A stretch of 64,000 bases of DNA, taken from NCBI RefSeq assembly GCF_029227855.1, contig NZ_CP074356.1; one strand, 5' to 3'. Positions 44,000-44,840 of this stretch are shown here, piece by piece. The translations under genes and the position numbers were made by a program. Origin of the DNA: Escherichia coli (GTDB lineage: Bacteria > Pseudomonadota > Gammaproteobacteria > Enterobacterales > Enterobacteriaceae). Positions within the stretch are counted from its first letter, which is position 1. Every line of letters begins with the position of its first letter. The notes under the pieces were generated by a model. That model was given only the letters and a program-made list of their open reading frames with translations, made no database searches and was not told the DNA's origin.

Positions 44000-44840
44000 T
44001 TAATTTGTTGTCTCATGAGGTTTCGCTAAATCTCATGAAGAGCGCAAAAGTATATAAAATCCACGCAATTGCGTGGATTTTTCATTTCACCGAGTCCTAA
44101 CCATTCTTATAACATCCTACACTTTTGTGCTTATTGCCTACAGTGAACCACGAGAATAATTAAAGACATAAATGTTCAGATGACGGATATCTCATTAGCA
44201 GTGATATAACGTAATTTTTTGTTCCACTACACATCAGCCCCCTTCACAGCTGATCAATATTGATCACGCTCCAATATGCTGGCGAGAAAAGGACTTACCT
44301 GAAGAGTAATATCCCGCAGATAAAATCCCCGAATAACGTGATTACGTGCGATCCTGGCAAGATGAAAATGATAACCAGTATCACGATAATAACGATATGC
44401 CAGAAAATCCATTGATCAAAAATGAATATCGATGTTTTTTGCTTTTTCTTATTAGTAATGCAAAAATGGCTCATATTGTTTTTGTTATGCAGATACATCA
44501 AGCGAAAATCCCATAACCAATTAGGATTATTACCAAAAATATTCACCAAATTATTTAACCGCTGTTTGTTGTAATGTTTTTGTCATATTCATTGTAACGA
44601 ATTGGAATAAGTAACGACAACTTAGGGAATAACTCGATCTAAACTCACCTTTGTAAGGGGGATGTTAAATATATATTAATTCCTGTGTTCCTGATTTTGC
44701 CCGGTAATAGAGAATTATTCTCAGAGCAGCTCATCATGATTGCACCATACAAATATCATGATGATAAGAGGATATTATTCATTGACTTAAACAAAATGAC
44801 AAAATCCATAGACCCATAGCCTGGGTACTATAGGAGTGGT

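What the first reader, a model, noticed from the sequence alone, without database searches (positions are those of the whole stretch)
44000..44840. 840 bp AT-rich intergenic region upstream of ycgV with an unassigned 84-codon hydrophobic ORF
The ychF–ycgV spacer is unusually long and AT-rich compared with the surrounding core genes. It contains a minus-strand ORF (44295..44549) encoding a peptide with a strongly hydrophobic stretch (IFWHIVIIVILVIIFILPG). AT-rich tracts of this kind upstream of adhesin genes are typical H-NS-silenced regulatory regions; the ORF could be a small membrane protein or a chance ORF in AT-rich DNA.
Basis: seen in the sequence. Interest (0 to 1): 0.3.

Follow-up and report, generated by a model that had tools for sequence, protein, structure and literature searches.

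The report
AT-rich silenced spacer upstream of ycgV
The long AT-rich gap between ychF and the cryptic adhesin gene ycgV of E. coli is mostly foreign DNA already catalogued as an H-NS-bound "promoter island", and the small hydrophobic ORF inside it is a previously annotated, later dropped, E. coli-only reading frame with no sign of selection on its protein, so the finding is ordinary.

Summary
The ychF-ycgV spacer is 841 bp (44000-44840) with GC 0.35, the most AT-rich stretch of the 64-kb window. It contains the minus-strand ORF 44295..44549 (84 codons, TTG start).

About 90 bp is the conserved ychF 3' end with a bidirectional terminator. The other ~750 bp is accessory DNA that is absent with ycgV from ST131. 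Its ycgV-proximal 435 bp is also found upstream of a Citrobacter ycgV orthologue.

The K-12 equivalent is a published "promoter island" that H-NS occupies in all ChIP studies compiled by that paper. YbdO binds the proximal 126 bp in vitro.

The 84-codon form occurs only in the window's lineage. Other strains carry 67-, 60- or 85-codon versions, caused by a stop-creating SNP, a 75-bp deletion or a lost stop.

Substitutions in the ORF frame look neutral: 4 synonymous, 16 nonsynonymous, 1 stop, at codon positions 9/6/6. In ychF the same strains give 0/0/17. No homologue exists outside E. coli/Shigella.

The ORF was once annotated as ECs5422 in O157 Sakai. Ribosome profiling there gave a signal below that study's coverage criterion.

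One oddity remains. The hydrophobic run has a period-3 pattern that base composition does not explain.

The parts
44000..44088 (+). Conserved (core) 3' flank of ychF. It holds a small hairpin at 44013-44038 and a bidirectional intrinsic terminator at 44056-44081 (AAAATCCACGCAATTGCGTGGATTTT, with T-runs on both sides).
   Evidence: Inverted repeats I6 and I2. Terminator scan. This is the only part of the spacer retained in ST131. It has 3 variable sites in 89 bp.
44089..44404 (.). Distal accessory segment found only in ycgV-positive E. coli. It evolves at close to the neutral rate. The core/accessory junction lies at about 44090-44118.
   Evidence: Homology with ST131 ends here and is replaced by an integrase/ISEc24 island. 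There is no similarity to the Citrobacter ycgV upstream region. 41 variable sites in 316 bp (my hand tally from the site list), compared with 17 of 100 third codon positions in ychF.
44279..44353 (.). 75-bp segment deleted in the K-12, BL21, LP5-1 and MB06021 alleles. It is bounded by the direct repeats CTGGCGAG (44279-44286) and CTGGCAAG (44354-44361). The deletion removes the ORF's last 19 codons and its stop.
   Evidence: Alignment A1 and coordinates. About 12 of 30 evenly spaced BLAST rows show the two-piece, 92-93% coverage pattern.
44295..44549 (-). The flagged ORF. The 84-codon form has a TTG start at 44549. The common 67-codon form starts at ATG 44498 and spans 44295-44498, 204 nt including the stop. 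The hydrophobic helix-like run is codons 48-64, at 44358-44408.
   Evidence: ORF list, strain variants, earlier annotations ECs5422 and others, neutral substitution pattern, no outside homologues.
44405..44840 (+). ycgV-linked upstream (regulatory) DNA. It is 62% identical to the region upstream of the Citrobacter sp. ycgV orthologue and about half as polymorphic as the distal segment.
   Evidence: blastn hit, query 406-900 against L012 4544-5059, E = 7e-36. Alignment A2. 26 variable sites in 418 bp (my hand tally from the site list). Proximal versus distal comparison, Fisher P = 0.0007.
44385..44685 (.). Approximate equivalent of the published K-12 'promoter island' 1255333_301, which is H-NS-bound.
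   Evidence: PMC3661553 Table 1. I inferred that the U00096.2-to-.3 coordinate offset at this locus is 777, from the position of a published sigma-54 motif. I then mapped K-12 positions to the window through alignment A1.
44774..44802 (-). Best sigma-70-like match in the surrounding 20 kb (TTGTCA-17-AATAAT, 10 of 12). It points away from ycgV toward the ORF. The same hexamers and spacing are present in Citrobacter.
   Evidence: Promoter scans. Alignment A2. This is a consensus match only; transcription was not shown.
44591..44620 (-). Second minus-strand promoter-like site (TTGTCG-18-TACAAT). It corresponds to the promoter that Huecker et al. predicted 132 bp upstream of ECs5422.
   Evidence: PMC5597208 S4 Table.
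44717..44840 (+). Equivalent of the 126-bp ycgV promoter probe shifted by the repressor YbdO in an avian pathogenic E. coli (APEC) strain. It includes the ycgV Shine-Dalgarno sequence AGGAG at 44832-44836.
   Evidence: Primer sequences in PMC11681634, matched by eye to the sequence.
44841..47725 (+). ycgV, an AIDA-type autotransporter adhesin gene. In this window it is split by a 1-nt deletion at 45954.
   Evidence: ORFs 44841-45977 and 45953-47725. The gene is intact (2886 bp) in strain KY178. That deletion is the only difference between the two.

Best explanation
The spacer has two parts: the conserved ychF terminator, and about 750 bp of horizontally acquired AT-rich DNA that belongs with the cryptic autotransporter adhesin gene ycgV.

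It most likely works as a xenogeneic-silencing and regulatory region. H-NS polymerises on the AT-rich tract and keeps ycgV off. H-NS also suppresses the many accidental promoter-like sites on both strands. Specific regulators such as YbdO act on the proximal ~125 bp. The bidirectional ychF terminator insulates the housekeeping pth-ychF genes from the islet.

The minus-strand hydrophobic ORF is a by-product of this DNA. It is probably transcribed weakly from spurious minus-strand promoters and terminated at the ychF terminator. Ribosomes may occasionally engage it, but selection does not maintain it as a protein.

Shown here: the anatomy, the accessory status, the neutral substitution pattern and the absence of homologues. 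Taken from the literature for K-12, O157 or APEC: H-NS occupancy, YbdO binding and low expression. Inferred: that the same applies in this strain, and that silencing is the function of the AT-rich tract.
For: Composition: GC 0.35, the lowest 0.1% of the window.

Accessory status:
- The spacer beyond ~44090-44118 and ycgV are missing in ST131 and replaced by an integrase island.
- ycgV orthologues sit in unrelated contexts in Citrobacter, Leminorella, E. alba, Cedecea and an unidentified sample. Their upstream spacers have below-locus GC in four of five cases.

Regulatory evidence:
- The K-12 equivalent is a published promoter island, H-NS-bound in all ChIP studies compiled there.
- An RNAP genomic-SELEX peak lies in the spacer.
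- YbdO shifts the proximal 126-bp probe, and a ybdO deletion raises ycgV mRNA about 4-fold.
- 3 of 14 promoter-like sites in 19.9 kb fall in this 841 bp.

The ORF is not under protein-level selection:
- 4 synonymous, 16 nonsynonymous and 1 stop substitutions, against a neutral expectation of 22/74/4%. Codon positions are 9/6/6 and all six frames look alike.
- ychF in the same 11 strains gives 0/0/17.
- Window versus K-12: ychF synonymous divergence is 0.066 with no nonsynonymous change.
- The ends of the ORF vary: 84, 67-68, 60 or 85 codons.
- All 13 HMMER hits among 1.84 billion representative proteins are variants of the same locus, including frameshifted and IS-truncated forms.
- The Citrobacter orthologous region has non-triplet indels and lacks the hydrophobic part.
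- tblastn of the ORF against the Citrobacter and Leminorella loci gives nothing.
- There are no Pfam or NCBIfam matches.

Expression: ECs5422 in Sakai has RNA RPKM of about 9, ribosome-footprint RPKM 6.4 and coverage 0.36. That is below the study's 0.5 criterion.
Against: H-NS binding and derepression were not measured in this strain, and I could not inspect the ChIP data directly.

The published high-affinity H-NS motif TCGATAAATT is not enriched in the spacer. The promoter-like sites are no more numerous than in composition-matched shuffles.

The hydrophobic run has a period-3 pattern far beyond what composition predicts. A lysine-rich segment precedes it, as in genuine membrane anchors.

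The frame from ATG 44498 is open in all 11 strains. It has a weak Shine-Dalgarno sequence, a predicted promoter and a terminator. In LB its ratio of ribosome-footprint to RNA density (RCV) is 0.69, above that study's 0.25 threshold.

Substitution density in the ORF region (6.6%) is below the neutral benchmark, so some DNA-level constraint exists there.
Confidence: 0.78

Rival explanations
1. The ORF (67-codon core, ATG 44498) encodes a real, lineage-restricted small inner-membrane protein. It would be a young 'proto-gene' expressed when H-NS silencing is lifted, with selection acting only on hydrophobicity.
For: The hydrophobic run is beyond chance. KKKQK precedes it, which fits the positive-inside rule for membrane proteins (my knowledge). 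The frame is open from the ATG in all 11 strains, and the main alleles each occur on at least 1000 contigs. There is a weak SD, a predicted promoter and a terminator, and RCV is 0.69 in LB. Substitutions inside the helix are I/V/L exchanges.
Against: The overall substitution pattern is neutral. The C-terminus is replaced by a 75-bp deletion in about 40% of genomes, and the stop is lost in strain KE47. Frameshifted variants are on record. Footprint coverage is 0.36, and RCV falls to 0.11 and 0.04 in the other two media. There are no homologues. RefSeq dropped the ORF. The conservative I/V/L changes are what the genetic code gives for NTN codons anyway: no position-2 change among 4 has P = 0.2.
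Confidence: 0.1
2. The ORF is the decayed 5' end (a signal-anchor) of a divergently transcribed gene that once accompanied ycgV. The rest was lost by deletion next to the ychF terminator.
For: The period-3 imprint persists without present-day selection. The n-region plus h-region architecture resembles a signal-anchor. The segment is deletion-prone (75-bp indel) and sits at an island junction.
Against: No related protein was found among 1.84 billion representatives. None of the five other ycgV-like loci has a comparable divergent ORF. The hydrophobic part lies in DNA with no counterpart in Citrobacter.
Confidence: 0.1
3. The spacer encodes a small hydrophobic type I toxin with an antisense RNA antitoxin, or another regulatory RNA.
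For: A small hydrophobic ORF lies in an intergenic region, and promoter-like sites on both strands overlap it.
Against: No Rfam family reaches its threshold. The only hits with E < 0.01 are leader-like matches to the terminator hairpin. The locus is single-copy. At 60-84 codons the ORF is longer than the known E. coli type I toxins (my knowledge). It has no family members and shows neutral evolution.
Confidence: 0.02

Closest known systems
E. coli 'promoter islands' (Panyukov and Ozoline 2013, PMC3661553): AT-rich, H-NS-covered regions beside horizontally acquired genes. Their table also lists the island upstream of the related adhesin gene yfaL.
   Same: The K-12 counterpart of window ~44385-44685 is itself one of the 78 listed islands (1255333_301). 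It is H-NS-bound in all compiled studies and linked to a predicted foreign gene. It is AT-rich, dense in promoter-like sites relative to its flanks, and shows low RNA output.
   Different: Nothing substantive. This window carries the long allele, with an extra 75 bp outside the island, and ~4% substitutions relative to K-12.
ECs5422 / ECH74115_1683 / CBG34079.1: a hypothetical (inner-membrane) protein annotated in some O157:H7 and E. coli 042 genome records.
   Same: It is the same reading frame and locus. The Sakai product has 67 aa, 0% Ala, 16.4% Ile and one predicted TM helix, matching the ORF translated from NC_002695.2 1702241-1702444.
   Different: The window allele has 16 extra N-terminal codons because of one SNP (44518 C rather than T) and carries several amino-acid changes. 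The gene call has been removed from current RefSeq records.
De novo membrane 'proto-genes' arising from thymine-rich intergenic DNA (described in yeast; recalled from my own knowledge, not checked here).
   Same: A T-rich strand yields an ORF with a single predicted TM helix. It is taxonomically restricted, weakly expressed and shows no purifying selection.
   Different: Here T-richness alone does not explain the helix. No adaptive effect or stable product has been shown.
Dam/OxyR phase-variable control region of the autotransporter gene flu (Ag43).
   Same: It is an upstream region of a homologous adhesin gene containing GATC sites. There are five in the spacer, two of them in a 16-bp palindrome at 44251-44266. 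ycgV GATC sites were reported as differentially methylated in evolved clones.
   Different: By my own estimate from base composition, about 2.7 GATC sites would be expected against the 5 seen, so there is no clear excess. The palindrome lies about 575 bp from the ycgV start, in the poorly conserved distal segment, and one GATC is lost in O157. No OxyR-like site was tested.

Membership tests
H-NS-silenced AT-rich 'promoter island' / xenogeneic silencing region | AT content far above the genome average over at least 300 bp | tested here: met
   GC 0.351 against 0.502 for the window; lowest 0.1% of 841-bp windows.
H-NS-silenced AT-rich 'promoter island' / xenogeneic silencing region | Association with horizontally acquired DNA | tested here: met
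   Absent from ST131 and replaced by an integrase island. ycgV orthologues lie in unrelated contexts in other genera. ycgV was predicted to be foreign in one of three compiled studies.
H-NS-silenced AT-rich 'promoter island' / xenogeneic silencing region | Unusually high density of promoter-like sites | tested here: inconclusive
   3 of 14 sites in 19.9 kb fall in 841 bp, about 6-fold the flanking density. This is not above composition-matched shuffles: 3 against 4.7 +/- 2.1. The original definition used the PlatProm program, which is not available here.
H-NS-silenced AT-rich 'promoter island' / xenogeneic silencing region | H-NS occupancy in vivo and derepression without H-NS | not testable with these tools
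   The literature reports occupancy for K-12 in all compiled ChIP studies. No data exist for this strain, and I found no published hns-mutant expression value for ycgV.
Genuine small membrane protein gene | Reading frame conserved, with purifying selection (third-position excess, dN/dS < 1) | tested here: not met
   4 synonymous, 16 nonsynonymous, 1 stop; codon positions 9/6/6, against 0/0/17 in ychF. The ORF ends vary. Non-triplet indels relative to Citrobacter.
Genuine small membrane protein gene | Predicted transmembrane helix beyond chance | tested here: met
   Kyte-Doolittle 19-residue mean 3.01, the highest of 231 short ORFs; nulls give P <= 3e-4. Predicted as 'inner membrane, 1 TM' by Huecker et al..
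Genuine small membrane protein gene | Experimental evidence of translation | tested here: inconclusive
   Sakai ribosome profiling in LB: footprint RPKM 6.4, RCV 0.69, coverage 0.36, below the study's 0.5 cut-off. Values are lower in BHI. The K-12 data sets could not be consulted: one supplement is truncated and one is absent.
Genuine small membrane protein gene | Homologues in other taxa or a curated family | tested here: not met
   Only variants of the E. coli/Shigella locus among 1.84 billion representatives. No Pfam or NCBIfam match.
Type I toxin-antitoxin locus | Antisense or overlapping antitoxin RNA and membership of a known toxin or RNA family | tested here: not met
   No Rfam match above threshold and no protein family. 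The existence of an antisense RNA itself cannot be tested here.

The most novel reading that the evidence does not exclude
The ORF is a very young small membrane protein gene confined to E. coli/Shigella, or the still-translatable signal-anchor stump of a lost gene. It sits inside H-NS-silenced foreign DNA and is expressed only when silencing is relieved. Its period-3 hydrophobic pattern would then be a genuine coding imprint, making it a bacterial example of a proto-gene sheltered by xenogeneic silencing.
Probability: 0.1. Interest if true: 0.4.

Novelty: already known. Interest (0 to 1): 0.12.

Why it matters
It matters little beyond annotation hygiene. The region is a textbook example of how E. 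coli stores a foreign, cryptic adhesin gene behind an AT-rich, H-NS-bound tract.

The ORF shows how such tracts produce convincing-looking 'membrane protein' gene calls that drift in and out of annotations.

The practical value is a clear negative. The ORF should not be promoted to a gene on present evidence, and the spacer should be read as ycgV regulatory and silencing DNA plus the ychF terminator.

The only loose end worth a small experiment is the non-random hydrophobic periodicity.

Tried and rejected
- Rfam at permissive E-values found only sub-threshold leader-like matches to the terminator hairpin.
- Pfam and NCBIfam on four spacer ORFs found nothing meaningful.
- A word-indexed protein search with the ORF timed out. 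I replaced it with a full HMMER scan.
- Tandem Repeats Finder found no repeat under the hydrophobic run, so a hexamer-expansion origin is rejected.
- The H-NS high-affinity motif TCGATAAATT is not enriched in the window or the spacer.
- K-12 ribosome-profiling supplements were no use. The Stringer et al. table is held only in truncated form, so the absence of coordinates says nothing. The Weaver et al. preprint has no held supplement.
- Supplements listing the ycgV mutations selected for adhesion are not held.
- A junction-specific BLAST meant to count the 75-bp deletion allele was confounded because the tool joins pieces. The ~40% figure therefore rests on the evenly spaced sample.
- Sensitive blastn of the accessory part against plasmids and phages returned only E. 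coli chromosomal sequence filed as plasmids, and no phage match.
- A literature search for the locus tags found nothing relevant.
- I considered and dropped the apparent 54-bp invariant block (44417-44470). By my own estimate, a run that long is expected about one time in three at the observed variable-site density.

Full report
**Observation**

The window is E. coli. pth lies at 42207-42791 and ychF at 42908-43999. An autotransporter gene identified as ycgV starts at 44841, and dhaR follows on the opposite strand.

The spacer 44000-44840 is 841 bp with GC 0.351, against 0.502 for the window. Only 0.1% of 841-bp windows are as AT-rich.

The minus-strand ORF 44295..44549 exists as described, with 84 codons, a TTG start and the quoted hydrophobic peptide.

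Its length is unremarkable. Dinucleotide shuffles of the spacer give a longest ORF of 64 +/- 17 codons, with P(>=84) = 0.12.

Its hydrophobic run is remarkable.
- The 19-residue Kyte-Doolittle mean of 3.01 is the highest of all 231 ORFs of 50-120 codons in the window. It exceeds the real small membrane proteins there.
- A 31%-GC Markov null gives P of about 3e-4.
- Shuffling the 57 nt themselves never reproduced it in 200,000 trials, because 15 of 19 codons have T at position 2.
- No tandem repeat underlies the pattern.

**Anatomy of the spacer**

Alignment of eleven E. coli strains, comparison with an ST131 genome and comparison with a Citrobacter orthologue divide the spacer into three parts.

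(i) 44000-44088 is the conserved 3' flank of ychF.
- It has a perfect 13+13 hairpin at 44056-44081 flanked by T-runs on both strands, which makes it a bidirectional terminator.
- It is the only part retained in about 13% of genomes. In the ST131 genome examined, a tyrosine integrase and ISEc24 follow it in place of the spacer and ycgV.

(ii) 44089-44404 occurs only in ycgV-positive E. coli.
- By my hand tally of the site list it has 41 variable sites in 316 bp. That is close to the 17% of third codon positions that vary in ychF in the same strains.
- It contains a 75-bp segment (44279-44353), flanked by CTGGCGAG/CTGGCAAG repeats. The segment is deleted in K-12, BL21 and roughly 40% of genomes.

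(iii) 44405-44840 travels with ycgV.
- It aligns at 62% identity (E = 7e-36) to the region upstream of an 80%-identical ycgV orthologue in a Citrobacter genome. There the upstream neighbour is a porin gene, not ychF.
- It is about half as polymorphic as part (ii). My tally is 26 sites in 418 bp. The proximal versus distal comparison gives Fisher P = 0.0007.

More distant ycgV-like genes sit in yet other contexts: Leminorella, Escherichia alba, Cedecea and an unidentified sample. In four of the five non-E. coli loci (these four plus Citrobacter) the upstream spacer has GC of 0.34-0.42 against a locus GC of 0.49-0.52.

Sensitive searches of plasmid and phage collections found no relative of the accessory DNA.

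**What is published about the region**

The K-12 counterpart of window ~44385-44685 is listed as promoter island '1255333_301 ycgV/ychF' in Panyukov and Ozoline 2013. It is associated there with a predicted foreign gene and marked as H-NS-bound according to all the ChIP studies they compiled (PMC3661553). I inferred a 777-bp coordinate offset between genome versions from the position of a published sigma-54 motif.

An RNA polymerase genomic-SELEX peak lies in the same spacer (PMC5493296).

In an avian pathogenic strain the repressor YbdO shifts a 126-bp probe equivalent to 44717-44840, and deleting ybdO raises ycgV mRNA about 4-fold (PMC11681634).

In a simple consensus scan, 3 of the 14 sigma-70-like sites in 19.9 kb fall in this 841 bp. 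That is no more than composition-matched shuffles give. The best site in the whole 20 kb is TTGTCA-17-AATAAT at 44802-44774 on the minus strand. It points away from ycgV, and its hexamers and spacing are kept in Citrobacter.

No known RNA family matches. The published high-affinity H-NS motif is not enriched.

**The ORF**

The 84-codon form exists only in the window and its 99.8%-identical relative. In the other nine strains a TAG at 44518 (TGG to TAG) removes the first 16-17 codons. The ORF then starts at TTG-ATG, with the ATG at 44498.

The C-terminus gives 67-68, 85 (stop lost) or 60 codons (75-bp deletion).

In the ORF frame the 21 substitutions are 4 synonymous, 16 nonsynonymous and 1 stop-creating. 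Random mutation predicts 22%, 74% and 4%. They fall at codon positions 9/6/6, and the other five frames look the same.

As a positive control, the last 300 nt of ychF in the same strains have 17 variable sites, all at third positions. Between the window and K-12, ychF and pth show 17 and 9 synonymous changes and no nonsynonymous change.

A full HMMER scan of 1.84 billion representative proteins returned 13 hits. All are variants of this same locus, including frameshifted, IS1-truncated and chimeric forms.

The Citrobacter orthologous region carries 2-, 4- and 5-nt indels within the homologous part and lacks the hydrophobic part altogether. tblastn of the ORF against the Citrobacter and Leminorella loci found nothing. 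None of the other ycgV-like loci has a comparable ORF.

**Previous annotation and expression of the ORF**

The ORF is not new.
- Exact-sequence look-up finds the 59-, 67- and 84-residue forms in GenBank and UniProt as 'hypothetical protein' or 'membrane protein'. Examples are ECH74115_1683, CBG34079.1 of strain 042, W8U1P2 and J7R069. The main alleles each occur on at least 1000 contigs.
- In the older O157 Sakai annotation it was ECs5422. Length (204 nt), composition (0% Ala, 16.4% Ile), one predicted TM helix and position all match.
- Current RefSeq records omit it.

Huecker et al. 2017 used ECs5422 as one of 250 short annotated control genes.
- In LB: RNA RPKM 9.3, footprint RPKM 6.4, footprint-to-RNA ratio (RCV) 0.69, coverage 0.36.
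- In BHI: 10.6, 1.1, 0.11 and 0.23.
- Under stress: 5.1, 0.2, 0.04 and 0.04.
- Their criterion for a translated ORF required coverage of at least 0.5.
- They predicted a promoter 132 bp upstream, an SD 8 nt upstream and a terminator 206 nt downstream. These fit the site at 44620-44591 and the ychF terminator.

**Interpretation**

The best-supported reading is that the spacer consists of the ychF terminator plus the foreign, AT-rich regulatory and silencing region of a cryptic adhesin gene. H-NS keeps it quiet and regulators such as YbdO fine-tune it. The ORF is a by-product: weakly transcribed, perhaps occasionally translated, and not maintained as a protein.

The reduced polymorphism of 44405-44840 is spread evenly over codon positions. 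This indicates constraint on the DNA itself rather than on any encoded peptide.

The one observation this does not explain is the period-3 hydrophobic pattern. That keeps alive two minority readings, at about 0.1 each: a young proto-gene, or the stump of a lost divergent gene.

A type I toxin or regulatory RNA is unlikely.

**Limits**

H-NS binding, YbdO binding and expression values come from other strains and were not re-analysed. The polymorphism test uses 11 strains and 21 substitutions. That is enough to reject strong purifying selection but not weak selection on hydrophobicity alone. K-12 initiation-profiling tables could not be consulted.

**Verdict**

The feature is already known and of low interest.

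Noticed in passing
window 45954 (ycgV 44841-47725): ycgV is split into two ORFs by the loss of one G in a GGG run. This is the only difference from the intact 2886-bp gene of strain KY178. It is either a very recent pseudogene or a homopolymer sequencing error.
   Followed up: partly
window ~44826-44831: (TA)2 here versus (TA)3 in all nine other ycgV-positive strains aligned. The tract lies a few bases upstream of the ycgV Shine-Dalgarno sequence AGGAG (44832-44836). It is a second short-repeat indel distinguishing this sequence from KY178.
   Followed up: no
window 44518: A single C/T polymorphism opens or closes ORFs on both strands at once (minus strand TGG/TAG, plus strand CAA/TAA). 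The 'open' C allele occurs only in the window and KY178, and Citrobacter has T.
   Followed up: yes
window 44251-44266: A perfect 16-bp palindrome, TGATCAATATTGATCA, carries two Dam (GATC) sites. It is imperfect in K-12 and BL21, and one GATC is lost in O157. ycgV GATC sites were reported as differentially methylated in evolved clones.
   Followed up: partly
L003 5001-6400 (ST131), junction at window ~44090-44118: In ST131 a tyrosine integrase and ISEc24 island begins right after the ychF terminator, where other strains carry the spacer and ycgV. This is an island junction without a tRNA gene.
   Followed up: partly
L011 ~1100-1351 (strain MB06021), window ~44823: An IS1 element is inserted about 18 bp upstream of the ycgV start codon and replaces the start of the gene in that locus.
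   Followed up: no
L016 9919-11897 (O157 Sakai): In O157 Sakai ycgV is a truncated pseudogene. No dhaR is annotated between dhaK and ycgV, which suggests a deletion spanning dhaR and the 3' part of ycgV.
   Followed up: no
L014 and L015: E. coli ychF-ycgV DNA (97-98% identical) appears in an 'Actinomycetes bacterium' MAG and in a Nocardioides malaquae assembly. This is presumably contamination in the public records.
   Followed up: no
window ~1300-2500: This is the only other stretch of the window where 841-bp windows fall below GC 0.40. I did not examine it.
   Followed up: no
window 44422-44574 (+): A second, plus-strand hydrophobic ORF (MNIDVFCFFLLVMQKWLILFLLCRY..., 50 codons here and 32 in most strains) abuts the minus-strand hydrophobic run. 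The strand skew switches from A-rich to T-rich near 44420.
   Followed up: partly
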